In this document: in pieces, positions 2,112-34,829 of the stretch
Position numbering within the stretch: position 1 is the stretch's first letter
Layout of the letters: every line of letters begins with the position of its first letter
Source: Dehalococcoidia bacterium
Lineage (GTDB): Bacteria; Chloroflexota; Dehalococcoidia; SHYB01
Direction of reading: 5' to 3'
Assembly (NCBI GenBank): GCA_965248515.1
Contig: CBDFJU010000002.1
Span: forward strand, 878,847 to 942,846
DNA length: 64,000 nt
Made by a program: the position numbers and the translations under genes
Notes under the pieces: generated by a model
Databases searched by the model: none
Told to the model about the DNA's origin: nothing
What the model saw: only the letters and a program-made list of their open reading frames with translations

Positions 2112-3290
2112 GTGGCAGGACGAGTAGGAATCGTGGCTACGGCTCAGACGAAGTACGAGGCCAGTAAGTCCCACCAGAACATATCGGAGATGGTGCTCGA
2201 GGTGGTCGAGCAAGTCCTCGAGACCACTGGCCTGACTTTTGCGGACGACGGTTCCGGCGTCGACGCGGCAGTGACCTGTTCGCAGGACCATTGGGATGGC
2301 CGATGTATTTCGAGCAACACGACGGTCGATGTCGTGGGTGGACACTTGCGTCCTGAGGAAAAGGTCGCAGGTGATGGTACTCAGGCCGTCTTCTACGCGA
2401 CTCTCCAGATCTTGGCAGGGCACTATGACACGGTATTGGTGACTGCCCACTGCCAGGAGTCTCAGACCGCCGGGCATATTGTGGAGAACGCAGGCTTTGA
2501 GCCCTTCGTCCATCGCCCGCTCGGCCTGGATTTTCTGGTAGCAGCGGCATTGCAGGCCAGGGCCTATATGCAACGCTACAACGTTACGTCCGAGCAGCTT
2601 GCCCAGGTGGTTGTCAAGAATCGAGCAAACGCAGCCCTGAACCAATTCGCCCAACTGCGCCAGCCGGTGAGCGTCGAAGAAGTCATGAATAGTGACCTCG
2701 TAGCGGATCCTTTGAGGTCGCTGGACATCAAACCAACATCCGACGGGGCATGCGCGATTCTCTTGGCTAGTGAAGATAGAGCGAAGAAGCTGACTCGGAA
2801 TCCCGTCTGGATTGCGGGCGGGGGCAGCTGTTACGACTCGGATCTTCTGGGTGACCGCGATCTGGCCAAGTGTGATGCTTTGGCAGAAGCGGCGAAGCGC
2901 GCCTACCGGATTGCGGGCGTTTCCAACCCTGCACGTGAGGTTGACGTAGCAGAGGTATCGGAGTTCTGTTCCTACCAGGAGTTGCTGTGGTCGGAGGGTC
3001 TGGGGCTGTGTGAACAGGGGGAAGGGGCACATTTAGCCGATTCAGGCAGGAGTGCGCTGCGGGGATCCTTGCCAATCAACCCGTCCGGAGGGGTGCTGGC
3101 AGGGAATCCTGTCACGGTGAGCGGTCTGACACGTGTGATAGAAGCGTCCAAACAGGTCGCCGGGCTAGCGGACGGTCACCAAGTGGATGGGGCTAGAGTA
3201 GCGGTGGCACAGGGGTTCGCGGGACCTTGCGGGCAGCTTCAGACGGTGTTGCTGCTTCGCGCGGATGATGGAGGGAAGTCTCGTGGCTAG
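2112..3290 (+). CDS. Thiolase-like protein (SCP-x/lipid-transfer-protein type, DUF35 partner)
   Basis: RVGIVATAQTKYEA N-terminus and thiolase-fold length. GTG 2112 is preceded by GGAGG (6 nt spacer); the track start at 2085 lacks an SD. Confidence 0.8.
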   Translation: MAGRVGIVATAQTKYEASKSHQNISEMVLEVVEQVLETTGLTFADDGSGVDAAVTCSQDHWDGRCISSNTTVDVVGGHLRPEEKVAGDGTQAVFYATLQILAGHYDTVLVTAHCQESQTAGHIVENAGFEPFVHRPLGLDFLVAAALQARAYMQRYNVTSEQLAQVVVKNRANAALNQFAQLRQPVSVEEVMNSDLVADPLRSLDIKPTSDGACAILLASEDRAKKLTRNPVWIAGGGSCYDSDLLGDRDLAKCDALAEAAKRAYRIAGVSNPAREVDVAEVSEFCSYQELLWSEGLGLCEQGEGAHLADSGRSALRGSLPINPSGGVLAGNPVTVSGLTRVIEASKQVAGLADGHQVDGARVAVAQGFAGPCGQLQTVLLLRADDGGKSRG

Positions 3291-4446
3291 AAGAGCTGCC
3301 ATCGTCGGCGTGGGACAGACGGCTCACAAGACTGCCCGACCTGACGTCAATGTCTCGGAGATGGTGAACGAGGCCGTCCAGGCTGCGCTCGGTGACGCAG
3401 GATTGACGCTGAAGGATGTGGATGCAGTGCTTGCGGGAAACATGGAGCTGTTCGAAGGACACTATCTGACCGATTGCATGGTCCTTGAGGGCACCGGAGC
3501 GTATTTGAAGCACGGGATGAAGTTGAACACCGGGGGCACTGTCGGGGCCACGATGGCGGCCGCCGCCTTCCACCACGTGCAGTCGGGATGGTTCGATACG
3601 GTCCTGACCATTGGCTTCAACAAGCTGGACGAGGGCAATACGACCGCTGGTATAACACTGTGTTTTGATGCGGTGTACAACCGCCCCTACGAATCCGGCG
3701 CGATCGGCGTTTTGGGCCTGCAGGCGCAGACTTACCTTAGGGAGTCAGGTTGCACAGAAGAGCATGCTGCCTTGGTTCGTGCCAAGGCAGGTCACAACGC
3801 TGCCCGAAATCCCTACGCCCACCGGAGGAGCGAATACTCAGTCGCCGAAATCCTCGGCTCGCGTGTTGTTGTCCATCCACTCCACGTGCTCGAGGTGTGT
3901 CCCGAAAGTAGCGGCGCCTGCGCGCTCGTTGTCGCGGCAGAGGGGCGGGCGGAAAAGATCACAAAGTCCCCGGTGTGGGTCAAGGATTGCGTCACCGTTC
4001 ATTCGGAAGCTTTCAAGCTGTCGATGGAACCCGATCCGCTGCCGACCAAGGAAAGCTATGAGCAGGCAGCCATCAAGCTGTTCAAGCGGAACGGTATCTC
4101 TCGGCCGAGGGAAGAGATTGACGTTGTCGAGTTGTACGAACCAACGAGCTGGTCGGAACTGTATTTCTCTGAGTTGGCCCATCTGTTTGAACCGGGAGAG
4201 GCCTGGAAAGCGGCGGAGAGAGGCGATACTAGTCTGAACGGCAGTTTCCCCATCAATCCGTCAGGCGGCGTGGTATGTACGAACCCCATTGGTGCGACGG
4301 CGATGATTCGCATTGCTGAGGCAACTCTGCAGGTGCGAGGCGATGCGGACGAGCGCCAGGTGGCACGAGAGGTTAACCAGGCTCTGGCAACAGGGTGGGG
4401 AGGACACAACTGGACGGTAATGACGTTGCTGACAAAGAGTCGCTGA
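3283..4446 (+). CDS. Thiolase-like protein (second paralogue, tandem)
   Basis: RRAAIVGVGQTAHK N-terminus with thiolase-like CxS/GG motifs. GTG 3283 follows GGAGGG; overlaps the upstream gene by 8 nt. Confidence 0.8.
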   Translation: MARRAAIVGVGQTAHKTARPDVNVSEMVNEAVQAALGDAGLTLKDVDAVLAGNMELFEGHYLTDCMVLEGTGAYLKHGMKLNTGGTVGATMAAAAFHHVQSGWFDTVLTIGFNKLDEGNTTAGITLCFDAVYNRPYESGAIGVLGLQAQTYLRESGCTEEHAALVRAKAGHNAARNPYAHRRSEYSVAEILGSRVVVHPLHVLEVCPESSGACALVVAAEGRAEKITKSPVWVKDCVTVHSEAFKLSMEPDPLPTKESYEQAAIKLFKRNGISRPREEIDVVELYEPTSWSELYFSELAHLFEPGEAWKAAERGDTSLNGSFPINPSGGVVCTNPIGATAMIRIAEATLQVRGDADERQVAREVNQALATGWGGHNWTVMTLLTKSR

Positions 4447-4462
4447 CATGCGAGGGTCATTC

Positions 4463-4978
4463 ATGGATAAGAAACGGGTTGAGTTCCCACCGGCAGAGGA
4501 TTTTCCCGAATACGTTGAAAGGTACACACGGATCCCGTACAAGTGGGCAGCCGGCGAATACGTAGGGCGGTTTCTGCAGGAGCTGCGAGACAACGGACTC
4601 ATATATGCGAACCGGTGCCCGAAGTGCGGTCGCTATCTCGTTCCCATGCGTCCTGTGTGTGGCCGTTGCCATGTGCGTATGGAAGGAATGTACACAGTGG
4701 GACCGCGGGGAACTGTGCTCGCCTATCAGTTTGTGGAGCAGCCTTTTCCCGACCCAAGTACCGGCGTTATGAGAGCAGTGCCCTACGCTACTGCGATTAT
4801 CGGACTGGATGGGGCGCCAGTAACCATTGATCATCTACTTGAGGAGAAAGACCACAATCGTATCCACGTTGGAATGCGTGTGGAAGCGGTCTTCAAGCCT
4901 CAATCTGAACGGACAGCACATATAACGGACATCAAATACTTCAAGACAATACCCGAGCAGACGGATGAAGTGAAATGA
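4463..4978 (+). CDS. DUF35 OB-fold / rubredoxin-like Zn-ribbon protein (thiolase-associated)
   Basis: CPKCGRYLVPMRPVCGRC zinc ribbon followed by an OB-fold, typical of the DUF35 family. ATG 4463 follows GAGGG. Confidence 0.8.
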   Translation: MDKKRVEFPPAEDFPEYVERYTRIPYKWAAGEYVGRFLQELRDNGLIYANRCPKCGRYLVPMRPVCGRCHVRMEGMYTVGPRGTVLAYQFVEQPFPDPSTGVMRAVPYATAIIGLDGAPVTIDHLLEEKDHNRIHVGMRVEAVFKPQSERTAHITDIKYFKTIPEQTDEVK

Positions 4979-5430
4979 ACAGCGGGCGGGCGACAGAGCC
5001 AATCATCGTTACCGGTCAGATAGACATGGCGCACCGCCAGTACACTGGCACGACGGTGGGGTCGTTTCTGGCTAACTTGAAGCAGGGGCGCATTGTGGGG
5101 TCGCGCTGCCCACAGTGCCCGCGTGTCTATGTGCCTCCCCGTTCTGTTTGCATTCGTTGCTTCACGAAATTGTCTGACATCACTGAAGTGGGACATGAGG
5201 GCTCGTTGCTCACTTATACCGTTGTGCGCTACCAGGAACCGATCCACGTCTATCAAGCCCCCTTCATGGTCGGACTGGTACAGCTGGATGGCGCAGATAC
5301 GGGTGTGCTCCACTACATCCGTGAAACGGACAAGGGAAAGGCTCGCATCGGAGCAAGAGTTCAAGCTGTCTTCCGGAATGTCCGAGAGGGAAGCATTCTG
5401 GATATTGAACATTTTGAGGTTATTGGATAG
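4975..5430 (+). CDS. DUF35 OB-fold / Zn-ribbon protein (second copy)
   Basis: CPQCPRVYVPPRSVCIRC zinc ribbon; ATGA stop/start overlap with the upstream DUF35 gene. Confidence 0.8.
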   Translation: MNSGRATEPIIVTGQIDMAHRQYTGTTVGSFLANLKQGRIVGSRCPQCPRVYVPPRSVCIRCFTKLSDITEVGHEGSLLTYTVVRYQEPIHVYQAPFMVGLVQLDGADTGVLHYIRETDKGKARIGARVQAVFRNVREGSILDIEHFEVIG

Positions 5431-5449
5431 CTGGCCATTGGGTTTCGCT

Positions 5450-6211
5450 GTGTCTGACAACAGAATCTTGTATCAAAGAAAGGATCACTTGGCTTGGGTG
5501 ACGATTAATCGGCCGCGCTCTCTGAACGCCATCGATCCGGAAATGAGCCGAGAGTTACGCCGTGTTTTCGAGGACTTCCGCGACACCGACGATGCGTGGG
5601 TTGCAGTTCTAACTGGTGTGGGACGTGCCTTTTCAACTGGAGCAGATTTGAAGGCGGCAGATGCTGCGGTGGCCGACGCCACACCATTCGGAGGCATCAC
5701 TCGGGATTTCCACACCTGGAAGCCAATCATCGCTGCTGTCAACGGGTACGCTTTGGGGGGTGGCCTGGAACTGGCGCTGTGCTGCGATATGCGGATTTGC
5801 TCCGAGGGCGCGCAGTTTGCTCTGCCCGAGGTTCGCTGGGGCATCATGGCCAACGCTGGTGGTACCACACGCTTACCTCGGGCGGTTCCCCCTGGTATCG
5901 CTCTGAAAGCTATTCTGACGGGTGATTACATAACGGCGGAAGAGGCGCTTCGGCACGGCCTCGTGAGCGACGTGGTCCCCGAAGATGAGCTACGGCCACG
6001 GGCTGAAAGCATTGCGGAAAGAATCTTGGCCAATGGCCCGGTGGCCGTGCGTGCCGCCAAACAGGCTGCTCTGCGGGGAATAGACATGGGTACTAATGAG
6101 TCCCTGGCGTTTTCATACTACCTGGGTCGATCCCTGTGGAATACGAAAGACGCATGGGAAGGCATCCGGGCTTTTGAGGAGAAGCGCCCACCTCGATTTG
6201 AGGGTCAATAG
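5450..6211 (+). CDS. Enoyl-CoA hydratase/isomerase (crotonase) family
   Basis: LAWVTINRPRSLNAID...GVGRAFSTGADL...LGGGLELALCCD crotonase motifs. The track N-terminal extension (5093) overlaps the DUF35 gene and is rejected; GTG 5450 chosen. Confidence 0.75.
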   Translation: MSDNRILYQRKDHLAWVTINRPRSLNAIDPEMSRELRRVFEDFRDTDDAWVAVLTGVGRAFSTGADLKAADAAVADATPFGGITRDFHTWKPIIAAVNGYALGGGLELALCCDMRICSEGAQFALPEVRWGIMANAGGTTRLPRAVPPGIALKAILTGDYITAEEALRHGLVSDVVPEDELRPRAESIAERILANGPVAVRAAKQAALRGIDMGTNESLAFSYYLGRSLWNTKDAWEGIRAFEEKRPPRFEGQ

Positions 6212-6347
6212 CCTGGACGGTCGGCGATTTGATCTCGCAAGCACCTCCGGGTGCGTTGGCCCGCCATCGTAGAGTCTTCCTAGACATTGGGCTCCCCGGA
6301 TTCATGACTGGGGCCTGATCTTGGGAGCAGGTCAGGGGAGTTACGCC

Positions 6348-7370
6348 ATGCCGTACTACGTGTATGCCACGAGTAAAGACGAAGACAAGGTTTCGATCTT
6401 CACGCTGGACGCTCAGAGTGGCGAGCTGGAGCGGGTGGATGATGTCGAAGTCAAGGGTGGCCCGGGCCCACTTGCGACACACCCCAAGTGGGACGTTCTC
6501 TATGTGGGACAGCGATACTCTTATGAGTTATCGACTTACAGCATAGATCGGCATGGGAGTATCTCCTGCATTGGCACAGTGTCGCTGGAGAGCGATCCCA
6601 ATTATCTGGTCACGGACAGGCGGGGTAATTTCCTTCTCTCCGCCTATTATCTCGCCGGGAAGGTGGCGGTACACCCCATTGCCAGTAATGGGGTTGCAAC
6701 CTCCCCGCCAACAGAGTGGCTGAGCACAGGCCTTGGAGCACATTCCGTCCAGACCGATAGGTCAAACCGGTACGTATTGGCCTCACACGTGGCTGGACCG
6801 GATCGTCCCAACGCGGTCTTCCAGTTCAGGTTCGATGAAAGCACAGGCCGCATCACTCCGCAAGTGCCGGCCAAGGTCACCGCGCTTGAGGGTGCAGGTC
6901 CACGGCATTTGTACTTTCACCCATCCAAGGACATCGTGTATTGCTCAAACGAGCAGGGATCTAGCGTATCGGCATTCAGCTTTGCCCCGTCACGGGGGAC
7001 TTTGAGCCCTATCGAGACCGTGGCGACGGTACCCGATGGCTATGAGGGCGAGAATATGTGTTCTGGAATAGAGGTCGCGCCCTCAGGGAAATTCCTCTAT
7101 GTAGGGAATCGTGGCTACAACAGCATCGCGTGTTTTTCCCTTGACACGATGACGGGGGGTCTGACGCTTATTGGGCAGGTTCCCACGGACCCCATACCGC
7201 ACGGATTTAGCCGTGACCCGGAAGGTAACTTCCTGCTTGTTACCAGCCTGGAAACCGGCCGTCTCTCGGTCTATCGAATCGATCAAGACAGGGGCGATCT
7301 GAAGCCCCTTGCGGTCTACCCTCTCGGTAAGTATCCGATGTGGGCAATAGTCGTGAGGGTTGGAGAGTAG
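6348..7370 (+). CDS. Lactonase, 7-bladed beta-propeller (6-phosphogluconolactonase/YbhE-like)
   Basis: MPYYVYATSKDEDKVSIF...PRHLYFHPSKDIVYCSNEQGSSVS repeated blade motifs. ATG 6348 follows GGGGAG. Confidence 0.7.
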   Translation: MPYYVYATSKDEDKVSIFTLDAQSGELERVDDVEVKGGPGPLATHPKWDVLYVGQRYSYELSTYSIDRHGSISCIGTVSLESDPNYLVTDRRGNFLLSAYYLAGKVAVHPIASNGVATSPPTEWLSTGLGAHSVQTDRSNRYVLASHVAGPDRPNAVFQFRFDESTGRITPQVPAKVTALEGAGPRHLYFHPSKDIVYCSNEQGSSVSAFSFAPSRGTLSPIETVATVPDGYEGENMCSGIEVAPSGKFLYVGNRGYNSIACFSLDTMTGGLTLIGQVPTDPIPHGFSRDPEGNFLLVTSLETGRLSVYRIDQDRGDLKPLAVYPLGKYPMWAIVVRVGE

Positions 7371-11817: not shown

Positions 11818-12645
11818 TTAGGCCGCCGCGGACTCGGCAGGCGCTCTGTCAAAGAACTGGTCCGGCGTCATTCCCCCAAGGCTCGAATGGGGCCGTCCGG
11901 CATTGTAAAACTCGAAGTACCGCCCGAGTCCAGTTCTGGCTTCCGGGACCGATTCGTAGGCTCTCAGGTACACCTCCTCGTACTTGACGCTCTTCCACAG
12001 TCGTTCGACGAACACGTTATCCTTCCAGCCCCCCTTCCCGTCCATACTGATCTGGATCTCACTGGCTTTCAGCAGGCCGGTGAAGGCATCACTTGTGAAC
12101 TGGCTTCCCTGATCTGTGTTGAATATCTCCGGCGCGCCGTGGCGTCCCAGGGATTCTTCGAGCGCCTCCACGCAGAAGTCTGTGTCCATTGTGACCGATA
12201 CCCGCCAGGCCAGCACCTTGCGGCTATGCCAGTCCATCACTGCGGCTAGGTACACGAACCCCCTGGCCATCGGAATGTACGTGATATCCATTGCCCACAC
12301 CTGGTTGGGCCTGCTCACCTCAAGCCCGCGCAGCAGGTACGGATACACCGTATGGCCGGGCCGTCGCCGGCTGGTGTTGGGCTTGCGGTACAGCGCATCG
12401 ATGCCCATCCGCCGCATCAGTGTGGCGATGTGTCTACGCCCGGAGGAGAGTCCCTCCTGGCGGAGCAGGCCTCGCATCATCCTACTGCCTGCAAACGGAT
12501 ACTCAAGGTGCAGCTCATCGATGCGGCGCATCAGCCCGAGACCGGCTTCGCCCACCGGCCGTGGCCGGTAGTAGATGCTCCCGCGGCTGATGCCCACTGC
12601 CTTTGCCTGGCGGGCGAGAGGCAGCTTGTGATCGCGGTCGATCAT
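11818..12645 (-). CDS. IS3-family transposase OrfB (rve integrase core, DDE)
   Basis: YIPMARGFVYLAAVMDWHSRKVLAW...TDQGSQFTS...LWKSVKYEEVY integrase-core motifs. Confidence 0.85.
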   Translation of the reverse strand: MIDRDHKLPLARQAKAVGISRGSIYYRPRPVGEAGLGLMRRIDELHLEYPFAGSRMMRGLLRQEGLSSGRRHIATLMRRMGIDALYRKPNTSRRRPGHTVYPYLLRGLEVSRPNQVWAMDITYIPMARGFVYLAAVMDWHSRKVLAWRVSVTMDTDFCVEALEESLGRHGAPEIFNTDQGSQFTSDAFTGLLKASEIQISMDGKGGWKDNVFVERLWKSVKYEEVYLRAYESVPEARTGLGRYFEFYNAGRPHSSLGGMTPDQFFDRAPAESAAA

Positions 12646-12947
12646 CGCCTTGCGCCCGGCAATCCCGCCTTCGTGAGCGCGGCCTCTAAAAAATCGTTCT
12701 CCAACGCAAGCTCACCGATCTTAGCGTGAAGGACCTTCATATCTACCAGCTTTTCAGCCTGCCCTGTCCCGGCGCCAAATAACTGCGCCGCCCGATCCAG
12801 CAACTGGGTCTTCCATTGCGTGATCTGGTTCGGGTGCACATCGAACTGGCTTGCCAGCTCCGAAAGTGTCCGGTTGCCGCGTACTGCGGCAAGAGCCACC
12901 TTCGCCTTGAACTCTGCCGAGTGGTTACGGCGGGGTCGTCTGCTCAT
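12642..12947 (-). CDS. IS3-family transposase OrfA (HTH)
   Basis: MSRRPRRNHSAEFKAKVALAAV...leucine-zipper C-terminus, typical of IS3 OrfA; 4-nt overlap with orfB. Confidence 0.85.
   Translation of the reverse strand: MSRRPRRNHSAEFKAKVALAAVRGNRTLSELASQFDVHPNQITQWKTQLLDRAAQLFGAGTGQAEKLVDMKVLHAKIGELALENDFLEAALTKAGLPGARR
12687..12693 (-). promoter_or_regulatory. Putative programmed -1 ribosomal frameshift heptamer U_UUU_UUA fusing orfA to orfB
   Basis: The heptamer is in the orfA zero frame; a -1 slip yields ...ENDFL-RGRAHEGGIAGRK-MIDRDHKLP... in the orfB frame. Equivalent site in copy 2 at 24977-24983. Confidence 0.55.
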
Positions 12948-13081
12948 CTCTCGCTCCTGTCTCCGAGAGCACTATCATGCCCTCAATCAGGCAGCGATTC
13001 CACTTATCCCCCTGTTCAGATTTCTGGAGCCACTTCTATAACCCCTTCCAACACGAATTGGTAAGGACCGAAAGTGTGCAC

Positions 13082-24446: not shown

Positions 24447-24722
24447 GGTATCCATATGTGAGGGCCTTTTTTGTTGCCCGCAGAAGTCACCCATTCGAGA
24501 CCCGCGACTTGGCTCCATCGATCCTGGCTAGAGCTCGTCGCAGTTTCGGAAGCTTGAAAGCTCGGCCAATATTCCAGGGAACGATTCGGGCGGCGGAGGC
24601 GTATATATATGAGATTGCCGACAGACTCGAACAGAAGTGGCTCCGGAAATCTGAACAGGGGGATAAGTGGAATCGCTGCCTGATTGAGGGCATGATAGTG
24701 CTCTCGGAGACAGGAGCGAGAG

Positions 24723-25028
24723 ATGAGCAGACGACCCCGCCGTAACCACTCGGCAGAGTTCAAGGCGAAGGTGGCTCTTGCCGCAGTACGCGGCGACCGG
24801 ACACTTTCGGAGCTGGCAAGCCAGTTCGATGTGCACCCGAACCAGATCACGCAATGGAAGACCCAGTTGCTGGATCGGGCGGCGCAGTTATTTGGCGCCG
24901 GGACAGGGCAGGCTGAAAAGCTGGTAGATATGAAGGTCCTTCACGCTAAGATCGGTGAGCTTGCGTTGGAGAACGATTTTTTAGAGGCCGCGCTCACGAA
25001 GGCGGGATTGCCGGGCGCAAGGCGATGA
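24723..25028 (+). CDS. IS3-family transposase OrfA (copy 2)
   Basis: Protein differs from copy 1 OrfA at one residue; frameshift heptamer TTTTTTA at 24977-24983. Confidence 0.85.
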   Translation: MSRRPRRNHSAEFKAKVALAAVRGDRTLSELASQFDVHPNQITQWKTQLLDRAAQLFGAGTGQAEKLVDMKVLHAKIGELALENDFLEAALTKAGLPGARR

Positions 25029-25535
25029 TCGACCGCGATCACAAGCTGCCTCTCGCCCGCCAGGCAAAGGCAGTGGGCATCAGCCGCGGGAGCATCTACT
25101 ACCGGCCACGGCCGGTGGGCGAAGCCGGTCTCGGGCTGATGCGCCGCATCGATGAGCTGCACCTTGAGTATCCGTTTGCAGGCAGTAGGATGATGCGAGG
25201 CCTGCTCCGCCAGGAGGGACTCTCCTCCGGGCGTAGACACATCGCCACACTGATGCGGCGGATGGGCATCGAGGCGCTGTACCGCAAGCCCAACACCAGC
25301 CGGCGACGGCCCGGCCATACGGTGTATCCGTACCTGCTGCGCGGGCTTGAGGTGAGCAGGCCCAACCAGGTGTGGGCAATGGATATCACGTACATTCCGA
25401 TGGCCAGGGGGTTCGTGTACCTAGCCGCAGTGATGGACTGGCATAGCCGCAAGGTGCTGGCCTGGCGGGTATCGGTCACAATGGACACAGACTTCTGCGT
25501 GGAGGCGCTCGAAGAATCCCTGGGACGCCACGGCG
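25025..25535 (+). pseudogene. IS3-family OrfB, 3' truncated by insertion of or rearrangement at the IS481-like element
   Basis: Matches copy 1 OrfB through ...EESLGRHG, then reads into foreign sequence. Confidence 0.7.
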
Positions 25536-27164
25536 TGTCGATGTCCAGCGATTATGTCCGCCTAAGTGGTCAGGGAAAATGTCCATCTAGGCCGCTGTCA
25601 TACCATCGGACTGTGATACGCGGGACCTGCCCCTGGTGCGCATCATGGGCGGGCTCTTGGCTTCGGCGTACTTGCGGACCATGTTCCTGTGGATGCCCAA
25701 CTCCCTGGCGATTGCCCGAATGGCGAGGCCCCGAAGCTTAGCCTGCTGCACGGCCTTCCACCGGACCCTCTGTCGCGGCGTGGGTTTCCTGCGTGGCGAT
25801 GCCGGAGGCTTGCAAACTCTGCCGCCGCCGTTCAATGTGGCGCTGTCGGCCTCGATGGCGTCGAGGGATGCCAAGCTCTCCTTGGAGTGGCTGCCCACGC
25901 CGTTGACCCTACGCTCAAGGCCGGGGCCATATCGGAGAGGACCATTGGAGGCACGGAGAACTCCAGGGCGCGGCGGCGCCTCCTGTGTGGGGATCGTGCG
26001 TCCCCGGTACTGCACGAGGAGCTGACCGTCCAGGCCCTCATGGACCTCCAGCTGCGCTCCGGCGTAGCTAGGCCGCTCCTTACCAGGCAGCAGCTGCAAG
26101 GTACGCCAGTTGTACTTGACGGTGTTGTCCCTGGCCACCTTGCGGCGGTGCTTGAAGCAGAGTATCTGGTCCAGGGACACCGATGACTCCATAGAGCGGT
26201 AAGCAACGCTTGAGTGCTCTGCCGGAACCCCGAACTTCTCGTTGAAGCGCGGCAGGAAGCGGTGCAGGACTTCATTGGCCTCGTCGATGGTGGTGACGCC
26301 CGCCAAGCGCAGCTCGGTCACCAGCCGGTCCTGGAATGTCCCCGCCGTCCGCTCGACCCGGCCCTTCGCCTGCGGTGACCTGGCGAATATCTGGCGTATC
26401 CCCAGCTCCTCCATGGCGCGGGCGAACTGGGTTGGCCCGGCCGGCTTCTGGCGAGGCTCTCCAGTATGCTTGAAGACCGCGTGTCGGTCGCTGTAGACGG
26501 CCAGCGGTATCCCGCATTGCCGGATCAACCCCTCCATGAGAAGGAAGTAGCCGCGGGTGTCCTCCTCCTGGCTGAACAGAGCGTCAGGCACAGTGCCGGT
26601 GGCGTCGTCCACGGCCAACAGCAGGACGAACCGGGGTCCTTGTTCCCCCAGCCACCGATGGTGGCTCCCATCTATCTGCAGCAGCATCCCTTCTTGGGCC
26701 ATGCGTTTGCGCCGGACACGGTGTCTGGGCGGCCGGCGGCGGCGGGGGCTGTCCACGCCGGCGCTGACCAGGATGCGGCGCACCGTAGAGCGGCTCAGGT
26801 CGATCCCCTCCCGTTCCATCAACAACTCGGTCAGATGCGTATGGTTCGTTCCAGCGTAGCGAGTGCGGGCCAGCTGCACCACGTAAGTCATCTTGGTCTC
26901 CGTCGTGGTGTTGGCCGGTCGGCGGCCACGATTCCCGTGGGCGAGTGCGGCGGCGCCCTCCTTCCTCTAGGCCGCCAGAATACGCCTCATGTGGCGTTCG
27001 CTCACTCCCAGGACCTCGGCCGCCTGACATACCGGCACCTGATCTGCCAGAACGCTGTTGAGCACCTGAAGTCTCGTCTGCTCCTTCTGCGTCAATGTCA
27101 CTCCTTCCATGGGATGACATTTTCGCTGACCAGTTAGCTACTGACATAATCGTAGAACAACGAC
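25536..27164 (-). mobile_element. IS481-like/ISNCY-like DDE element (~1.63 kb) with 23-bp imperfect terminal inverted repeats
   Basis: Left IR TGTCGATGTCCAGCGATTATGTC at 25536; right IR reverse complement TGTCGTTGTTCTACGATTATGTC ending at 27164. The two flanks differ and no target duplication is seen. Confidence 0.6.
25587..27109 (-). pseudogene. DDE transposase (HTH + rve core) interrupted by an in-frame TAG at plus 26966-26968
   Basis: Reads MEGVTLTQKEQTRLQVLNSVLADQVPVCQAAEVLGVSERHMRRILAA-TAG-RKEGAAALAHGNRGRRPANTT...; homologues as I recall have Tyr at the stop position. The downstream part is track ORF 25587..26891. Confidence 0.6.
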
Positions 27165-28707
27165 ATTCAATGGCCAGCACTTCTGTACCATGTCCGCCAA
27201 TCGTATAGTGGTGTGATAGCCCCTGTTCTTCAATGGCATGACGCAGGCTCCGGGACCCGCTGGTCACATAAGGCGGATTCGTGAGGATGAGATCATAAGG
27301 GGCATCGTTCACCCGTGCGAAAGTCCCCAAATTGGACCGCAGCAGCCGGAAGACGTTGTTAAGCGCGCCAGCTGAGAACGCCTGCAGGTGTTCCGGCGAG
27401 TGGTATTTCGTCAACAGGTCCGATAGGTAGATAAGCATATTGGCCTTGGCCAGGATAATCGTCCGCTCATCCTCTTTTTCGTCGCTGCCCTTGTCGTAAC
27501 CGACCATTGTGATGGACGGTGCCACCACTCCATCGACAGGCTCAAACCCGCGCAATAGATGAGGGTTCGCAGATATACACTCAAGGATGAACCCGCCCAC
27601 GCCACAAAACGGGTCGCATATCCTGGCTCCATCCCTCAACTGCTTGGCGTCCGACATCTCCACCATCGCTCTCACTACGTTGCGGGGAGTGAAGTATTGC
27701 CCGAGGAACTTGATTCCTGCGTTCTGGCGTAGGAACGCTTCGTATAGCCGGGTCTTGAACTCCTTATTGATGTATCTGAGCGACCCAAAGCGACTGTCGT
27801 AGTCCTGCAAGTGCCGTAGCACTTCACCGAACAGATTGGCTTGTGCCGTGTTCGGCTGCCCGTTTTCATTTACGAAAATGGTGCCGTTTATGATGGTCGT
27901 GCCGTCGTCGCTTTTCGGGAATAGCGCCTGGACCTCTTTGCGACAGATGTTGGCGTAGTAGGTCAGTGCGGCGGCGGCCGATACAGCGTGGAGGCGTTCG
28001 CAAACGGAGTTGAAGTTGTTGTGGGATTGCAACACACCTATGTCGCTTAGAAACTTGAATACAAACAACTCGACGACGTTATAGAGACACTTTTCAGGCT
28101 CTTTGCCGGTATTGACCCATATTTTCTGCCACATCGTCTTGGCCAGCGCGGACGGGTCTAGGACTTCCGGCATCGATAACTGGTCGTTGGTGTCACTCAG
28201 GGAATGGTCGATCTTGTCAACAAGAAGTTCCAAGTCTGTCGCGGCTTCTGCCGAAATAGAACCGTCTTCTATTGGCCTCACATCGAAGATGCGCGTGAGT
28301 ACGTCCCCTTCCTCTGTCCGAATCCGGTTCCCGGTCAGGGCGTTGATCCAGTAAGTGGTGTTGCCAGAGGTCACTATCAATAGCTTGCATAGCTGCCTGG
28401 CCACTGCAAGTTCCTGGTCAATTGCTACCTGAACTTGCTCTGGAGTTCTGAGTTCGGATGGTGACTTGTATTCAACAATGGCCTTGACTCCACCACCGAG
28501 GAGCACCACAACCCCGTCGGGCTTCTTGTTGGCGATGTTCTGAGTAAAGGAACCTTTGACCACACCGGCATTTCTGGGTTGCCGGAGCGTAGAACTGCCA
28601 AGTCGATAAAAGAGGTATCTCCCAAGAGGCTTAGGTGCCGTCTGTAACAGTTCCTCACTCATCGCGGCCACGCTGGGTCTTCGAGTACCGCCGTTTCTTG
28701 GGAACAC
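27165..28707 (-). pseudogene. Type IIG-like restriction-modification enzyme, 3' truncated by the IS481-like element
   Basis: N-terminal PD-(D/E)xK-like motif (PDGVVVLLGGGVKAIVEYK), then gamma-class N6-adenine methyltransferase motifs (DPFCGVGGF ... LTNPPY). The frame runs into the IS inverted repeat at 27164, and the remaining track ORF sequence is IS-derived. Confidence 0.6.
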
Positions 28708-28885
28708 GCTGCCGTTGGAGCAACCGGTCCAGGTGCTCTATGGTCGACTTCCGGTTCGCTGGTGTCCGGTCGCCGGCGACCCACTTCTCGACGGCGTTCT
28801 TGGTGACCCCCAGCTCGTCCGCTATCGCCGCCCAGGTCCATCCCTTCTCACGGAGCTTGGCAAGGCACGTCTGCACTTCGTTCAT
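28655..28885 (-). CDS. Small XRE/Cro-type HTH protein (controller-like) immediately upstream of the RM gene
   Basis: GWTWAAIADELGVTKNAVEKWVAGDRTP helix-turn-helix; ATG 28885. The rest of track ORF 28655..29914 is antisense to the transposase gene and rejected. Confidence 0.55.
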   Translation of the reverse strand: MNEVQTCLAKLREKGWTWAAIADELGVTKNAVEKWVAGDRTPANRKSTIEHLDRLLQRQRVPKKRRYSKTQRGRDE

Positions 28886-28927
28886 GGTGGCACAATACCA
28901 ATAGGAACGGTTCGCAGAGGTAAGAAC

Positions 28928-30212
28928 ATGATCGCGCAGACCATCACAGCCCTCGGCCCCAACGACCCCGATGACGGCGACCCCGGACGGCAACAACGCG
29001 GCTTGGCCATCGCCGCCACCGTGCCGATTCGCAAGAACAAGCTGGGCTACCAGATTGCCTCGCAGTCCGGTAACGGCTCCTACGTGATTAACTTGGATGA
29101 CGGGATTTTCTGCTCCTGCCCGGACTTCGAGAAACGACAGGAGCCTTGCAAGCACGTCTACGCCGTGGAGTTCACCGTCCAGCGTGAAGCGGACGCTCCC
29201 ACCGGCGAACCCGAAACTGTCCGAGTGTCCCTCGGCCCCTCTTGGACGGCCTACAACCTGGCCCAGACCAACGAGCAGGAGTTGTTCGGAACCCTGTTGC
29301 GGGAACTGTGCGCCGACGCTCCCCAGCCGCCGCAGGGCAAGGGGCGGCCCCGCCTCCCCGTACCCGATATGCTCTTCGCCATCGGCCTCAAGGTCTACGG
29401 CACAATGTCCGGACGGCGAGCCATGACGGACTTCAGGAACGCCCAAGCCGACGGCCTGCTCTCCACCTGCCCGTCGTTCAGCGCCGCTTTCCGGTACATG
29501 GAGAACCCCGCCGTCACGTCGGTCCTGAAGTCCCTGATCGAGCAGAGCGCCCTGCCTCTGAGGGCCGTTGAAGTCGACTTCGCCGCCGATGCCAGCGGCT
29601 TTTCCACCAGCGTCTACGACCGCTGGTTCGACCACAAATGGGGCAAGGAAAAAAAGCAGGCCCGGTTCCTCAAAGCCCATATCATGTGCGGGGTGAACAC
29701 CAAGATCGTGACGGCTGTGGAAGTCACCGAGGCCAATGTCCACGACTCCCCGCCGTTCGCGGGTTTGGTGGCGAAGACGGCGGAGAGCTTCAACATGAAC
29801 GAAGTGTCGGCTGACCGGGCGTACCTGGCGAGGAAAAACTTGAAGGCCGTCGTGGACGCCGGGGCTGTCCCCTTCATTCCATTCAAGATCAATTCCAAGC
29901 AGGAACACACCCACGGCGACTCGTTGTGGGCGAACGACCTACCACTACTTCAGCCTGTTCCGCGAGGAATTCATGGATCACTACCACAAGCGTTCCAACG
30001 TGGAAACCGCCTTCTCGATGATCAAGGCCAAGTTCGGGAGCGCGGTGCGCTCCAAGACGCCGGTCGCCCAGATGAACGAGGTTCTGGTTAAGATTCTCTG
30101 CCATAATATCTGCGTGTTGATTCAAGCGATGTGCGTCCTGGGGGTTGAGCCAGATTTCCGACGCGAAAAGACTTTTGCATCAACCAGGACTTTTGATGCA
30201 AAAGTCAGCTAA
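28928..30212 (+). pseudogene. SWIM zinc-finger + DDE (IS4/IS5-type) transposase with a +1 frameshift near 29935
   Basis: CSCPDFEKRQEPCKHVY SWIM motif; the C-terminal ...MDHYHKRSNVETAFSMIKAKFG continues in another frame (ORF 29973..30212); the expected ...LWA-TYHYFSLFREEF join implies a 1-nt insertion in AACGACC. Confidence 0.65.
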
Positions 30213-30236
30213 ATTTCAGGCTTTTGGTGCAAAGCC
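30170..30236. repeat. Two hairpins at the 3' end of the SWIM-DDE element (14-bp perfect IR GACTTTTGCATCAA/TTGATGCAAAAGTC; then GGCTTT..AAAGCC)
   Basis: Seen directly; they overlap the transposase stop codon and probably mark the element terminus abutting the RHS gene. Confidence 0.5.
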
Positions 30237-33200
30237 CCTTCACGTATGGAGCCACCTCCGGCGGGACCGTCAAGGCCGGAACGACGACCCTTGTGTCGAT
30301 GGCACAGGTCGGCGCCGATGGCGTCTCCGCCTTAGCTACAACCACGTTCACCTATCAGGACCACACCGTTTATTACGAAGACTCGGGAGGAGTCCAATTC
30401 GATGAGGATTGGCCGTTCCTCACGAAGATCGAGAACGGCTACGGCGCCTCGGTGACGATGACCTATACCAGCATCCCAACGGGGACGCCCAAAAGTATTT
30501 GGACCCGAACGGCCGTGACCGAGCGAGTCGTTGACCCGGGCGTTGGCCCCACGGCCAGCACCTCGATTGCGTATACCGGATCGCCGACTTATTACAGCTA
30601 CGGCGATTACACGGTACACGAGTTCCGAGGCTTTGCCACCGTAACGAGAACGGACGCCGCGGGGCATTACTCCCAGCACGGCTTCTACACGACCGGGAGT
30701 GACGACGAAGACAAGCTCACTGGTCGCGAAAAGGAGGTGAAGCGCTACGATAGTGCGGACAACCTCCTGACCTCGACTGTGAACACCTGGGGTTGGGATT
30801 ACACGTGCTGCGATAGTCCAGACGCGACCGTGACCTATTACATTCACCTCGACCAGGTAGATCAGACCACCGGCTCTAAAACCAGCCGCACCCGGTACAG
30901 CTATGGCGCCCATGGCAACCTCGACCGGGAGAACCACGACGGTGACACGAGCACGACGTCCGACGACTGGACGCTGTTCCGGGACTTCAACGTCAATACC
31001 ACCGAGCACATCTTGAGCACAGTTGCGTCCACTTCTGTCTTCGAGGGCGACAAGACCGTCGACACCGGCTCCGGCAAAATGGCCGAAACCTTCTTCTTCT
31101 ACGACGGCAACAACCTCGATGCCGATCACCAGGACGATCCGTCCATAGGCAACGTCACACGGGTCAGGACGATGATCGACGGCTCGAACTATGCCAACAC
31201 CTACGCCACCTACGACACCTATGGCAACCGCTTGACGGCCACGGATGCCAATAACGCCACGACCACGTGGGTCTACGACTCCTACTATCACTCATTGCCG
31301 ACCAAGGAGACGTACTCTGCAGTCGGCACAAGCCCCGCCATGGAGGAGGAGGCTACCTGGGACTTCGGCACCGCCAACATGGCGTCGTTGGAGCGACGCG
31401 AATGGCGAGACCACCACCTACGAGTACGACACGTTCGGCAGGATTACCAAGGTCGTCAGGCCCGGCGACACGTCGGCCAGCGCGACGGTCGTGTACAACT
31501 ACAACTCTTTTGGCACGATCGAACAGCAGAACCTGGAGACCGTCGCTCGGATCGACGATGCCAGCACAACTTGGTCCAAAGCGTACTTCGATGGACTAGG
31601 ACGAACCGTGCAGGTCCATTCCGAGGGCGACACGGAGGGGACGACCACGTACGTCATTGTCAGCGGCACGACGGACTTCAACGACCTTGGTCTGGTGGAC
31701 AAGGGATACCTGCCCCAACGGCTGGGCTCCACGACGCTAAATGGTTTCGAGGCGCCTGGGGCCGGCTGGGAGGCCACCACTTACGCCTACGACGGCTTGG
31801 CGCGGGTATCTTCGACGGCGGCGCCGGACGGGACAGTGGTCACCCACGACTACAGCACGGCTTGGCGGGACACCGTCACTGACGCCAAGGGCTACAAGAC
31901 GCGCTACATCAACGACGCCTTCGGGCGGCTCGTTCAGGTCGACGACTACGACGCCTCTGGGACGACGGTCTACGCCAGCACGACCTATGTCTACGACGTG
32001 ATGGGGAACCTCACCCAGGTCACCGACCCGTCGAACAACGACACGACGATGACCTACGACATGCTGAGTCGCAAGGTCGTGATGGACGACCCCGACATGG
32101 GGGTCTGGCGCTACACCTATGACGACAACGGCAACTTGACGGCCCAGAACGATGCCAAGAATGCTACTATCACGCTCACGTACGACGAGTTGAACCGCCT
32201 CACAGCGAAGACCTATCCGTCCGGCTCGAGCACCACCGACGTGACCTTCGCTTACGACGCCACGACCGCCAGCAACAAGGGACTGGGCCGCCGCACTGGC
32301 ATGACGGGAGATGCCACCGCGACATGGGTCTACGACAGCCGCGGGCGAGTTGCGACGGAGACTATCACGATCAATGGCGACGCCCAGACCTTCGGCTACA
32401 CCTACGACGGCGCCGATCGCCTCACCGTCGTCACGTACCCCGGCGGCGAGGTCGTGACCCAGACCTATAACGACCGTGGTCTCCCCTCGACACTCACCGT
32501 CGATGCCTGGGCCATCGGTCCGGCGGGCTACAATCGCCTGGGCCAGTTGACGAGTCTCAGTCTGCCCGGCCAAAAAATCGAGATCACTAACGACTACTGG
32601 GGCTTGGAGCACAACCCCTCGTCCGACACCAACTTCGGCCGTCTCTACCAGACCAAGGCCCTCAGATTAGGGAGTACGCGTCAGGACCTGACGCATCAGT
32701 GGGACGCAGCCGGCAACCTGACCAGCCGAACCGACAGCCTCGGCTCCGTCGAGACCGAGGACTTCACCTACGACTTCCTCGACCGGCTCACGGGGGCGAG
32801 CAACGCCTACTCGCGCTCTTATGCCTACGACGAGATCGGGAACATCACCGACTTCGACGGGTCGTCTTACACCTACGGCTCTCAGCCACACGCCGTGACT
32901 ACCGCCGGAAGCACCACCTACGCCTACGATGCGAACGGCAACATGACCTCTCGAGGTTTTCAAGACCTCACCTGGGACGACGAGAACCGACTTACGCGAG
33001 TGGGGCTAACGAATGGCCTAATCGGGCGGTGGGGTCTCGACGAGGGATCGGGTTCGACGGCGTCCGACACGAGCGACAACTCGAACGATGGCACCCTCAC
33101 TAATGGTCCTACCTGGACCACAGGCCAACATGCCAACGCGTTGGATTTCGACGGCACAGACGACTACGTCAACATCGGCGACCCGGCGGGCCTTGACTCG

Positions 33201-34829
33201 GGTACGTCAGACTTCACCCTTTCCGCTTGGGTCTATGTCGATGACTTTACGGGCATTATCTTCAGCAAGGGAAGAGCGACCGGAGGCACCCAAGGGTGGG
33301 AGCTTGGGATGGAGGCAACGGGCAAATTCAGGTTCTCATTCCTCGATTCCGACTCCGACGGGACCGAGGGCGACAAATGCGCGGCCATGGATAGCGGGTT
33401 CGCCACTGGAACCTGGTACCACGTCGGCGGCGTGAGAAGCGGCGGTAACGGTACTCTGTATGTCGACGGCGTTCAGGAGGCCACCTGCTCCAACTCAGAG
33501 AGCGCGGGAAGCATCGACAACAACAAACAAGCGCGGATCGCCTTCATTGACGGCGGCTCGAGCAGCCAGGCCTTCGATGGCATCGTCGACGAGGTCCGGA
33601 TTTACCACAGCGCCTTGACAGCTTCAGAGGTCCAGGCTCTCTACGAAGACGGGGCGCTCTACGCCACCTACACTTACGACCCCTACGGTCGAAGGGTCAC
33701 CGCTATCGAGGGCGGCGAGACAATCGCGTACTACAACAAATACCTCGAGAAGAACCTGACGACCGGCGTCGTGACAAGGTACTTTTATTTCGGCGGGATG
33801 CTGCTGGCGCGAAGGAACACGTCCACGCAAATCTACCACAAGGACCACTTGACGGGAATCAACACCATGACCGACGCCGCGGGCGGGCTGGTCGGCTCCA
33901 TCTACTACTACCCTTACGGGGACACGCGCTCGACGTCGGGGTCGATCGACACCGAAAAGCGCTTCACCGGCCAGCGCCAGAGCTCGGCGACGGGCCTGTA
34001 CTACTACAACGCACGTTGGTACGACCCAACGATTGGGCGGTTTATCAGCGCGGACACGATTGTGCCAAACCTAAGCTCCCAAAGTCTTAACAGGTACTCG
34101 TACGTTGACAATAATCCACTGAGATTCAGGGATCCGACGGGCAGATGCGGAATGGAAACCGCATTCTTTGCCTGCAGCTTCGATGATTACGTGAGTTTCG
34201 GTTCATCTGGTGGCGGATTTACAGTCAATGCGGATCTGACCGGGATTGAGTACGGCGGGTTGGTTGCCGATGTGGGCGTTGGTGCCGGCGGTAGTATCTC
34301 AAAGGGAGCGGCAGCACAGAGGCGCGGCGGCAGCCTCCCCCCGGGTGAAAGGCAGAGAGGGAATCAGCTACCCCTTGAGGTATCCTCCCCGGTCGGCTCC
34401 ACGAATATCGAGGTCGCGGTTGACGTCACCAGACTTGGAAGCGGTGCATTTGAGATCGATGTGATGGCGACCGCGCAAGGAGCCTCTGTATACTCCGACT
34501 TGATCGAGAATGGCGAGTTCTTCGTGTCGCCACAACCTGGGCGTGGCGACCAGGTGAGTGGCTACTTCTTGCCCAAACACATTGACCAAGAAGGGTTCAC
34601 CAGAACCGCAAGAAAGAGTCTGACGGTGGAAGCTGAGCCGGAAAGGCTGTTTTTCAAGTTTGGAAACTCTATGGAGCCGACTCATTTGGTCGGTGATTGG
34701 CCTACAACCCAGCCGTTCACTGGTATCCTGATAGATGCCAGGACAGGCGCCGCTATACTAGCGACTGCAGTAGATGAATCGGGTTGGTCCAGTCGGGACT
34801 GGGATGAGTTTCTGGGACCAGCTGTCTAA
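30224..34829 (+). pseudogene. RHS/YD-repeat polymorphic toxin gene: 5' end displaced by the transposon, internal frameshift near 31390
   Basis: YD repeats throughout (..YEYDTFGRITKV.., ..YTYDELNRLTAKTY..). RHS core end motif ..NRYSYVDNNPLRFRDPTGR.. is followed by a ~240-aa unassigned C-terminal domain. LamG/ConA-like insert at ~33000-33650. Frames 30224..31882 and 31245..34829 join with a 1-nt deletion. Confidence 0.75.

What the first reader, a model, noticed from the sequence alone, without database searches (positions are those of the whole stretch)
27165..28885. Truncated Type IIG-like RM enzyme with an upstream controller-like HTH gene, cut by an IS
The minus-strand ORF starting at 28707 has an N-terminal PD-(D/E)xK-like motif (D...EYK), then gamma-class amino-methyltransferase motifs (DPFCGVGGF, NPPY). 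That combination marks single-chain Type IIG/MmeI-like restriction-modification enzymes. The frame runs straight into the inverted repeat of the IS481-like element at 27164, so the target-recognition C-terminus is gone. A small XRE-type HTH gene (28655-28885) overlaps its start, like a C-protein controller. This is a disarmed defence gene next to the mobile-element nest.
Basis: partly seen in the sequence, partly recalled or inferred. Interest (0 to 1): 0.5.

Follow-up and report, generated by a model that had tools for sequence, protein, structure and literature searches.

The report
Decayed transposon carrying a restriction-modification gene
The flagged gene is a dead, IS-truncated single-chain restriction-modification enzyme, ordinary in itself, but it and its small regulator gene are cargo of a poorly known transposon family that carries different DNA-methylase and restriction genes between microbes.

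Summary
A minus-strand gene (true ATG 28662) encodes a PD-(D/E)xK nuclease domain, an HsdM-like helical domain and the first half of a gamma-class N6-adenine methyltransferase. It breaks at codon 499, where an insertion sequence begins (27164/27165). Intact relatives are 680-690 aa with a separate S-like partner, or 855-880 aa with one fused HsdS-type domain. A 96% identical intact copy has 874 aa. About 375 residues are missing: half the methylase fold as well as the specificity domain.

Three points need correcting. The enzyme is of the BcgI/HaeIV (Type IIB/IIG) kind, not MmeI-like. The IS is ISNCY, not IS481. The HTH gene is not a conserved partner of this enzyme family.

The HTH gene belongs to a transposon with a SWIM-plus-DDE transposase, GGGCTTTGC... 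terminal repeats and 7-bp target duplications. In relatives, a palindrome (CCATAC-N3-4-GTATGG) sits in two back-to-back promoters, and varied methylase or RM cargo follows the HTH gene.

The window copy has four lesions: RM gene cut, cargo-side terminal repeat lost, 57 nt of promoter and operator deleted, and transposase frameshifted. The pseudogene is ordinary; the transposon family is moderately interesting.

The parts
27166..28662 (-). Truncated RM gene, codons 1-499 of an ~874-codon single-chain nuclease-methylase-specificity enzyme
   Evidence: It is 96% identical to residues 1-499 of P0001 (874 aa). The frame then reads on into the IS.
28267..28662 (-). N-terminal PD-(D/E)xK nuclease domain (aa 1-~132). 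Catalytic D49, E64 and K66 lie at 28465-28518.
27763..28170 (-). HsdM-type N-terminal helical domain (aa ~165-300)
27166..27762 (-). First half of the gamma-class N6-adenine methyltransferase domain. Motif I DPFCGVGGF is at 27589-27615 and motif IV NPPY at 27268-27279. The second half is missing.
   Evidence: Pfam N6_Mtase covers profile positions 8-138 of 311. The intact P0001 covers 8-279.
28655..28885 (-). Cro/XRE-like HTH gene (76 aa). Its stop overlaps the RM start by 8 nt.
   Evidence: It has 44 protein homologues and 80 metagenome loci.
28886..28927 (.). Residual intergenic region. A 57-nt deletion relative to L001 removed both back-to-back promoters and both palindromic operators. Only TGGTATTGT (the -10 of the HTH promoter) remains.
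   Evidence: and the alignment. The promoter scan finds 2 sites in L001 and 0 in the window.
28928..30212 (+). SWIM zinc-finger plus DDE_Tnp_1 transposase, a pseudogene. A +1 frameshift near 29935 puts the C-terminal segment YHKRSNVETAFSMIKAKFG (29973-30212) out of frame.
   Evidence: Pfam SWIM and DDE_Tnp_1. The DNA alignment to the intact 428-aa L001 gene shows a 1-nt insertion.
30221..30237 (-). Transposase-side terminal inverted repeat GGGCTTTGCACCAAAAG. It is the only one in the window.
   Evidence: The same repeat bounds complete elements with 7-bp target duplications in L001, L089, L113, L114, L121, L126 and L159.
25536..27165 (-). ISNCY-family insertion sequence (1630 bp) that ends the RM gene. 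The transposase ORF is 26891-25587, plus an N-terminal fragment at 27110-26967 cut off by an in-frame TAG.
   Evidence: NF033594 E 2.5e-102. IRs at 25536-25558 and 27143-27165. There is no target duplication; the flanks are an IS3 fragment and the RM gene.
24633..25535 (+). Truncated IS3-family element abutting the other end of the ISNCY element
   Evidence: Pfam HTH_Tnp_1, HTH_21 and rve. It is 99.7% identical to a second copy at 13037-12135, and the match stops exactly at the ISNCY end.

Best explanation
Window 27166-30237 is the wreck of a ~4.3-kb transposon. When intact, as in the relative L001, the element reads: terminal repeat, SWIM-DDE transposase (leftward), back-to-back promoters, Cro-like HTH gene, single-chain RM gene (rightward), terminal repeat.

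The RM cargo was an 874-aa enzyme. It had an N-terminal PD-(D/E)xK nuclease, an HsdM-like helical domain, a gamma-class N6-adenine methyltransferase and one HsdS-type specificity domain. This is the HaeIV form of the BcgI-like Type IIB/IIG enzymes. Such an enzyme would be expected to act as a homodimer on a symmetric bipartite site, methylating it or cutting nearby (inferred from family knowledge, not tested).

The HTH protein most likely binds the palindrome CCATAC-N3-4-GTATGG. This palindrome lies in the spacer of both promoters, so binding would repress its own and the cargo transcript together with the transposase transcript (inferred from conserved cis-elements). Its mRNA is probably leaderless.

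In the window every part is broken:
- The RM gene stops at codon 499 at an ISNCY element.
- The downstream 375 codons and the cargo-side terminal repeat are absent from all 64 kb.
- 57 nt holding both promoters' -35 boxes and both operators are deleted.
- The transposase is frameshifted.

It is therefore a dead relic, neither an active defence gene nor an active transposon.
For: RM identity and truncation:
- The intact homologue is 96% identical and has 874 aa.
- Homologues fall into length classes of 680-690 and 855-880 aa, and none ends near 499.
- The E. coli form has an overlapping 370-aa S-like partner and no HsdR.
- Nuclease fold and invariant D...ExK.
- The full-length model matches Type I MTases, BpuSI, DrdV and BsaXI.
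- The three architectural forms match the published BcgI, AloI and HaeIV scheme (PMC4081073).

Transposon:
- Terminal repeats with perfect 7-bp target duplications in 7 loci, enclosing transposase, HTH gene and cargo.
- The HTH gene is next to this transposase in 33 of 62 loci with enough upstream sequence.
- The cargo after the HTH gene varies: N6_Mtase, Eco57I, Type_ISP_C with MmeI_Mtase, N6_N4_Mtase, MT-A70 with ParB_N, EcoRI methylase, HNH, GmrSD.

Regulation:
- A mirrored TTGACA-18-TGnTATTAT promoter pair with an embedded palindrome is conserved.

Decay in the window.
Against: - No enzymatic activity, recognition site or DNA binding was measured.
- PADLOC's Type IIG model matches only weakly (E 4.8e-6).
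- 29 of 62 HTH loci lack this transposase upstream, so the HTH gene with its promoter also exists outside recognisable elements.
- Repression, rather than activation, is inferred only from the operator's position.
- The order of the four lesions is unknown.
Confidence: 0.78

Rival explanations
1. The HTH protein is a classical C-protein controller dedicated to the RM gene. It would delay or tune nuclease expression after entry into a new host, and the transposase next door would be an unrelated insertion.
For: The gene order and 8-nt overlap with the RM gene match C-R operons. The same overlap with a downstream methylase or RM gene is seen in L089, L121, L126, L159 and L168. A palindromic operator close to a probably leaderless start is typical of C genes (PMC2632904). 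Some HTH-methylase pairs lack the transposase (L168/L169).
Against: There is no sequence match to solved C proteins. Only 1 of 88 loci of this RM family has the HTH gene. The transposase promoter carries a mirror-image copy of the same operator. The terminal repeats and target duplications enclose the transposase, HTH gene and cargo as one unit. A single-chain RM enzyme has no separate methylase to be expressed first, so the usual reason for a C-protein delay is absent.
Confidence: 0.25
2. The protein is only a Type I-like HsdM methyltransferase with a non-catalytic N-terminal extension, as RefSeq annotates it, so no restriction gene was lost.
For: RefSeq and UniRef names are 'HsdM family class I SAM-dependent methyltransferase' or 'N-6 DNA methylase'. 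The best PADLOC and PDB matches are Type I M subunits.
Against: The first ~130 residues fold as a restriction-endonuclease-like domain with an invariant D-X14-E-X-K. No HsdR gene accompanies the gene in E. coli or in the other loci read. Single genes inserted alone between housekeeping genes (L006) fit a self-contained RM enzyme.
Confidence: 0.1
3. The truncated gene is still expressed and useful, for example as a nuclease-only or decoy protein driven from the neighbouring IS.
For: The reading frame stays open for 692 codons from ATG 28662. The 96% DNA identity to an intact copy suggests the break is recent.
Against: The native promoter and operator are deleted and no sigma-70-like promoter is found nearby. 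Half the methylase fold and the whole specificity domain are missing. The last 193 codons are out-of-context IS sequence. A nuclease without methylation would be harmful if it were active.
Confidence: 0.05

Closest known systems
Type IIB / IIG combined RM enzymes of the BcgI, HaeIV and AloI forms
   Same: Both have an N-terminal PD-(D/E)xK nuclease, a gamma-class NPPY adenine methyltransferase and HsdS-type specificity. The family occurs as RM with a separate S subunit (686 + 370 aa in E. coli), as RM with one fused TRD (855-880 aa, as here), and rarely in ~1080-aa forms. This matches the three published forms (PMC4081073).
BpuSI (Type IIG, PDB 3s1s) and DrdV (Type IIL, PDB 7lo5)
   Same: These are the best whole-chain structural matches. 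They share the same order of nuclease, helical, methylase and specificity domains.
   Different: Sequence identity is 11-12%. Their specificity domains differ from the HsdS-type TRD found here. The MmeI-family Pfam domains do not match.
Type I HsdM subunits (EcoKI, StySJI, M.PacII)
   Same: They are the closest relatives of the helical and methylase core by sequence and fold.
   Different: HsdM proteins lack the N-terminal nuclease domain and work with a separate HsdR motor-nuclease. No HsdR is present in the loci examined.
C (controller) proteins of Type II RM systems (C.PvuII, C.AhdI, C.Esp1396I)
   Same: Both are small HTH genes directly upstream of and overlapping the nuclease-encoding gene. 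Both have a palindromic operator at their own promoter and a probably leaderless mRNA. C-protein homologues have also been reported next to mobile-element genes (PMC2632904).
   Different: There is no sequence match to solved C proteins; the weak best hits are Cro proteins. There is a single palindrome inside the promoter spacer, not the double C-box. The operator is duplicated on a divergent transposase promoter. The cargo enzyme has no separate methylase.
IS elements with passenger genes, and IS5-family transposases
   Same: The element has a DDE_Tnp_1 transposase, short terminal inverted repeats, fixed-length (7-bp) target duplications, and passenger genes inside the repeats.
   Different: The transposase has an N-terminal SWIM zinc finger. 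It scores below every NCBIfam IS cut-off (best IS5_2, 64.5 bits against 140). It is only 24-27% identical to IS5-family genes on plasmids. The element also carries a dedicated HTH gene with mirrored operator-promoters and interchangeable methylase or RM cargo.

Membership tests
Type IIG/IIC combined RM enzyme | PD-(D/E)xK endonuclease domain in the same chain as the methylase | tested here: met
Type IIG/IIC combined RM enzyme | Gamma-class N6-adenine methyltransferase, with motif I (FxGxG) before motif IV (NPPY) | tested here: met
   DPFCGVGGF at aa 350-358 and NPPY at aa 462-465. Pfam N6_Mtase E 5e-11 for the fragment and 5e-23 for the intact P0001.
Type IIG/IIC combined RM enzyme | Specificity module fused to the chain or present as a separate S subunit | tested here: met
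   Met in intact relatives: a fused HsdS-like TRD (PF01420 in precomputed hits; weak E 0.02 in P0001), or a separate 370-aa S-like protein (PADLOC Specificity_I). It is absent from the window copy.
Type IIG/IIC combined RM enzyme | AdoMet-dependent site-specific cleavage and methylation | not testable with these tools
   This needs biochemistry on an intact homologue.
Type IIB (BcgI-like) | Cuts on both sides of a bipartite recognition site | not testable with these tools
   Only the architecture could be compared.
Type IIB (BcgI-like) | Structural similarity to a solved Type IIB enzyme (BsaXI) | tested here: inconclusive
MmeI-like Type IIL | MmeI_N, MmeI_hel, MmeI_Mtase or MmeI_TRD domains | tested here: not met
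   No MmeI Pfam family matched the fragment or P0001 at E <= 0.05. MmeI is only a weak structural hit.
   Homologues are 680-880 aa, have a nuclease-fold N-terminus, and have no HsdR neighbour.
C-protein controllers | Small HTH gene directly upstream of and co-oriented with the nuclease gene | tested here: met
   The HTH gene is at 28885-28655 with an 8-nt overlap. The same arrangement occurs in L001 and L089.
C-protein controllers | Sequence relationship to characterised C proteins | tested here: not met
   Neither the single sequence nor a 40-sequence profile finds any C protein among PDB chains at E <= 10. The best natural matches are Cro proteins at E 0.06-0.26.
C-protein controllers | Conserved palindromic operator at its own promoter, close to the start codon | tested here: met
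   Met in relatives: CCATAC-N3-4-GTATGG lies between TTGACA and TGnTATTAT, and the -10 ends ~6-10 nt before the ATG. It is deleted in the window copy. Binding was not tested.
C-protein controllers | Consistent association with RM genes | tested here: inconclusive
   About 25 of 59 HTH loci with enough downstream sequence have a DNA methylase or RM gene next. Only 1 of 88 loci of this RM family has the HTH gene.
IS-type transposon with passenger genes | Terminal inverted repeats plus fixed-length target-site duplication around the transposase and cargo | tested here: met
   GGGCTTTGC... repeats with perfect 7-bp duplications occur in L001, L089, L113, L114, L121, L126 and L159. The window keeps one repeat only.
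IS-type transposon with passenger genes | Intact DDE transposase | tested here: not met
   The window copy has a +1 frameshift near 29935. Relatives encode 428-436 aa.
ISNCY family (the interrupting IS) | Transposase above the NCBIfam cut-off, with terminal inverted repeats | tested here: met
   NF033594 scores 342.8 bits against a cut-off of 250. IS481 scores 90 bits against 224. IRs of 23 nt match at 18 of 23 positions.

The most novel reading that the evidence does not exclude
The SWIM-DDE transposase, Cro-like HTH gene and mirrored operator-promoters form a dedicated delivery vehicle for DNA-methylase and RM genes. One repressor would couple transposase and cargo expression. Both would then fire in a burst when the element enters a repressor-free cell and shut down together afterwards. 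This would be a transposon-level analogue of C-protein control, and it could explain how single-gene RM enzymes spread across bacteria and archaea.
Probability: 0.3. Interest if true: 0.6.

Novelty: new variant of a known kind. Interest (0 to 1): 0.4.

Why it matters
For this genome the result is modest. The flagged gene is a pseudogene inside a pile of insertion sequences and does nothing now. Two wider points emerge.

1. A very widespread RM family is annotated only as "HsdM family methyltransferase". It has 2460 homologues and keeps 45-70% identity from E. coli to archaea. It carries an unannotated, invariant nuclease domain, so defence-system surveys probably undercount it.

2. The HTH gene reveals a transposon family with clear ends and target duplications that carries interchangeable methylase and RM cargo behind a conserved regulator and operator. 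Well-defined transposable units for RM genes are few. This one gives a concrete, testable route for RM mobility and for coupled control of transposition and cargo expression.

Tried and rejected
- I looked for the missing 3' part of the RM gene elsewhere in the window by tblastn with P0001. None was found.
- I looked for a second ISNCY copy that could explain a recombination. None was found.
- I looked for a target duplication around the ISNCY element. None exists; its flanks are unrelated (an IS3 fragment and the RM gene).
- I tested whether the HTH gene is a conserved partner of the RM family. Only L001 of 88 loci has it.
- I tested MmeI-family membership with Pfam. There is no match.
- I tested the MADS MAD2 lead from NCBIfam and PADLOC. 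It scores 40.7 bits against a cut-off of 720 and covers only methylase motifs, so I rejected it.
- I tested known C-protein membership against PDB sequences with a single sequence and with a profile. There is no hit.
- An apparent inverted repeat between 28886-28905 and the transposase-distal end was a chance resemblance. The true cargo-side repeat lies beyond the RM gene, as L001 shows.
- Two literature searches for a described SWIM-DDE element with RM cargo, or for C-box regulators of this kind, found nothing specific.
- A plasmid search with the transposase found only distant IS5-family genes.

Full report
**Observation**

The minus-strand ORF listed from GTG 28707 to 26584 really begins at ATG 28662 (MSEELLQ...). 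This N-terminus is shared by every homologue.
- D49...E64-Y65-K66, in the context KKPDG...VKAIVEYK
- DPFCGVGGF at residues 350-358
- NPPY at residues 462-465

Pfam finds N6_Mtase over residues 305-468, but this covers only profile positions 8-138 of 311. The HTH gene at 28885-28655 encodes 76 aa (Pfam HTH_3, HTH_23). Its stop overlaps the RM start codon by 8 nt (ATGAGTGA).

Homology to the closest relative ends at window 27164. An IS terminal repeat, TGTCGTTGTTCTACGATTATGTC, begins there. The last 193 codons of the listed ORF are read-through into that IS.

**What the gene was**

A protein search gave 2460 homologues.
- The best, P0001, is 96% identical over all 499 residues and is 874 aa long.
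- Among 88 loci, intact family members fall into two main length classes: 680-690 aa and 855-880 aa. A few are about 1080 aa. None ends near residue 499.
- The long form adds one HsdS-type target-recognition domain (PF01420 in precomputed annotations; weak in P0001).
- The short form in E. coli O55:H7 is followed, with an 8-nt overlap, by a 370-aa protein. That protein matches Type I specificity-subunit and Type IIG C-terminal models. No HsdR gene is nearby.

Foldseek ranks BpuSI, DrdV, BsaXI and EcoR124I HsdR first, although with weak E-values. D49, E64, Y65 and K66 are invariant in 61 sequences. They sit on the adjacent beta-strands where the PD-(D/E)xK motif normally lies.

The full-length P0001 model (pLDDT 88.6) matches Type I methylases best. 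It aligns over its whole length to BpuSI and DrdV, and partly to BsaXI.

The family is therefore a single-chain nuclease-methylase with HsdS-type specificity. Its three architectures match the BcgI, HaeIV and AloI forms described for Type IIB/IIG enzymes (PMC4081073). No MmeI-family domain matches. The window gene was of the HaeIV form, with one fused specificity domain.

**What was lost**

The missing 375 residues include the second half of the methylase fold, the C-terminal helices and the specificity domain. They are nowhere in the 64-kb window.

The interrupting element spans 25536-27165. It is an ISNCY-family IS, not IS481 proper: NF033594 scores 343 bits against a cut-off of 250, whereas IS481 scores 90 bits against 224. 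Its other flank is a truncated IS3 copy. The match of that copy to a second IS3 at 13037-12135 stops exactly at the ISNCY end. There is no target duplication. A rearrangement or adjacent deletion therefore removed the 3' part of the RM gene, not a simple insertion.

**The HTH gene**

Among 88 loci that encode relatives of the RM enzyme, only L001 has a homologue of the HTH protein. It is not a family partner of this enzyme.

The HTH family itself comprises 44 proteins and 80 metagenome loci. It shows three regularities.

1. *Link to a transposase.* In 33 of 62 loci with more than 700 nt upstream, the HTH gene lies near a SWIM zinc-finger plus DDE_Tnp_1 transposase. In 30 of these the two genes are adjacent and divergent. 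This is the same transposase that lies upstream in the window and in L001.

2. *Variable cargo.* The gene after the HTH, often overlapping it by 4-8 nt, varies widely. Examples are:
   - N6_Mtase proteins of 597-897 aa
   - an Eco57I-type protein of 1107 aa
   - a protein with Type_ISP_C and MmeI_Mtase domains (1036 aa)
   - N6_N4_Mtase proteins of 813-822 aa
   - MT-A70 with ParB_N
   - an EcoRI-type methylase
   - HNH and GmrSD proteins

   About 25 of 59 loci with enough downstream sequence have a DNA methylase or RM gene there.

3. *Defined ends.* Terminal inverted repeats beginning GGGCTTTGC enclose the transposase, the HTH gene and the cargo. They are flanked by perfect 7-bp direct repeats in L001, L089, L113, L114, L121, L126 and L159. 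In L001 the element spans 2233-6551 with duplication TGCTAAT.

The HTH gene and the RM gene are therefore passengers of a transposon. Its transposase is only distantly related to IS5-family genes. It scores below all NCBIfam IS cut-offs and is 24-27% identical to plasmid IS5 genes, with the SWIM region unmatched.

**Regulatory region**

An alignment of the region upstream of the HTH gene from 22 loci shows two mirror-image promoters. Each reads TTGACA, an 18-nt spacer, then TGnTATTAT, and each contains the palindrome CCATAC-N3-4-GTATGG in its spacer.

The HTH-side promoter and palindrome are also present in 20 of 21 loci that lack the transposase. A consensus scan of L001 finds exactly these two promoters, against 0.1 expected by chance. 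The -10 ends 6 nt before the HTH ATG, so the mRNA is probably leaderless.

I infer that the HTH protein binds the palindromes. It would then control its own and the cargo transcript together with the transposase transcript, most likely by repression, given the operator's position inside the spacer. This resembles C-protein circuits, which use a palindromic operator, a leaderless mRNA and an overlap with the nuclease gene (PMC2632904). However, neither the HTH sequence nor a 40-sequence profile matches any solved C protein. The weak best matches are Cro proteins. A single-chain RM enzyme also lacks the separate methylase that motivates the C-protein delay.

**State of the window copy**

- Relative to L001, 57 nt between two TGGTAT repeats are missing. 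This removes both -35 boxes and both palindromes. No promoter-like site remains.
- The transposase has a 1-nt insertion near 29935. This puts its C-terminal segment YHKRSNVETAFSMIKAKFG out of frame.
- Only the transposase-side terminal repeat survives, at 30221-30237.
- The RM gene is truncated as described above.
- The cargo region has 52-55% G+C, against 60-65% in the flanks. This is consistent with foreign origin.

**Verdict**

The subtype, the IS family, the extent of the loss and the nature of the HTH gene need correction.

The pseudogene itself is ordinary. The transposon family it reveals is a new variant of known kinds (IS elements with passenger genes, and C-like regulators). It is moderately interesting and readily testable.

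Noticed in passing
window 25587-27110 (-): The ISNCY transposase is itself interrupted. An in-frame TAG at 26967-26969 separates a 47-aa N-terminal HTH fragment from the 434-aa ORF. Its C-terminal ~50 residues also match the N-terminal HTH of IS21 transposases (NF033546, aa 387-424), an unusual extension beyond the ISNCY profile.
   Followed up: partly
window 24633-25535 and 12135-13037: There are two copies of an IS3-family element, 99.7% identical and in inverted orientation. The copy at 24633-25535 is cut off exactly at the ISNCY end, which suggests IS-mediated rearrangement in this region.
   Followed up: partly
L007 5027-8616; L008 5075-8619: In two metagenome contigs, an 871-872-aa relative of the RM enzyme is directly preceded by an IS1595-family transposase gene on the same strand. 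The genes abut in L007 and overlap in L008. This is a second, independent association of this RM family with a transposase.
   Followed up: no
L002-L005 (E. coli O55:H7 and relatives); NC_017656.1 5116766-5119931: The E. coli member (686 aa plus a 370-aa S-like protein) sits in an integrase-bounded island next to Kiwa (KwaA/KwaB) and an HNH/ScoMcrA-like gene. It occurs in only 4 of 5426 complete genomes. It is annotated as an HsdM-family methyltransferase plus a hypothetical protein, with no mention of a nuclease.
   Followed up: partly
L009-L088: The RM family keeps 45-70% identity across very distant hosts: Enterobacteria, Actinomycetes, Chloroflexota, Bacteroidota, and Nitrosopumilus, Bathyarchaeia, Woesearchaeota and Methanosarcinales archaea. 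In L006 it is a lone gene inserted between enoyl-CoA hydratase and CoA-transferase genes. This points to frequent horizontal transfer as a single-gene unit.
   Followed up: no
window 30224-34829 (+): Directly beyond the transposon's terminal repeat lie large ORFs rich in YD/Rhs-type repeats (30224-31882 and 31245-34829), in two overlapping frames. The gene may be frameshifted, and its 5' end may have been displaced by the transposon insertion.
   Followed up: no
L090 6024-8263; L091 6168-6797: Two elements of the HTH/SWIM-transposase family both carry a 209-aa protein with no Pfam match (their relatedness was not shown; they did not cluster). In L090 this gene is followed by a 531-aa N6_N4 methylase with a faint NA-iREase1 hit.
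   Followed up: no
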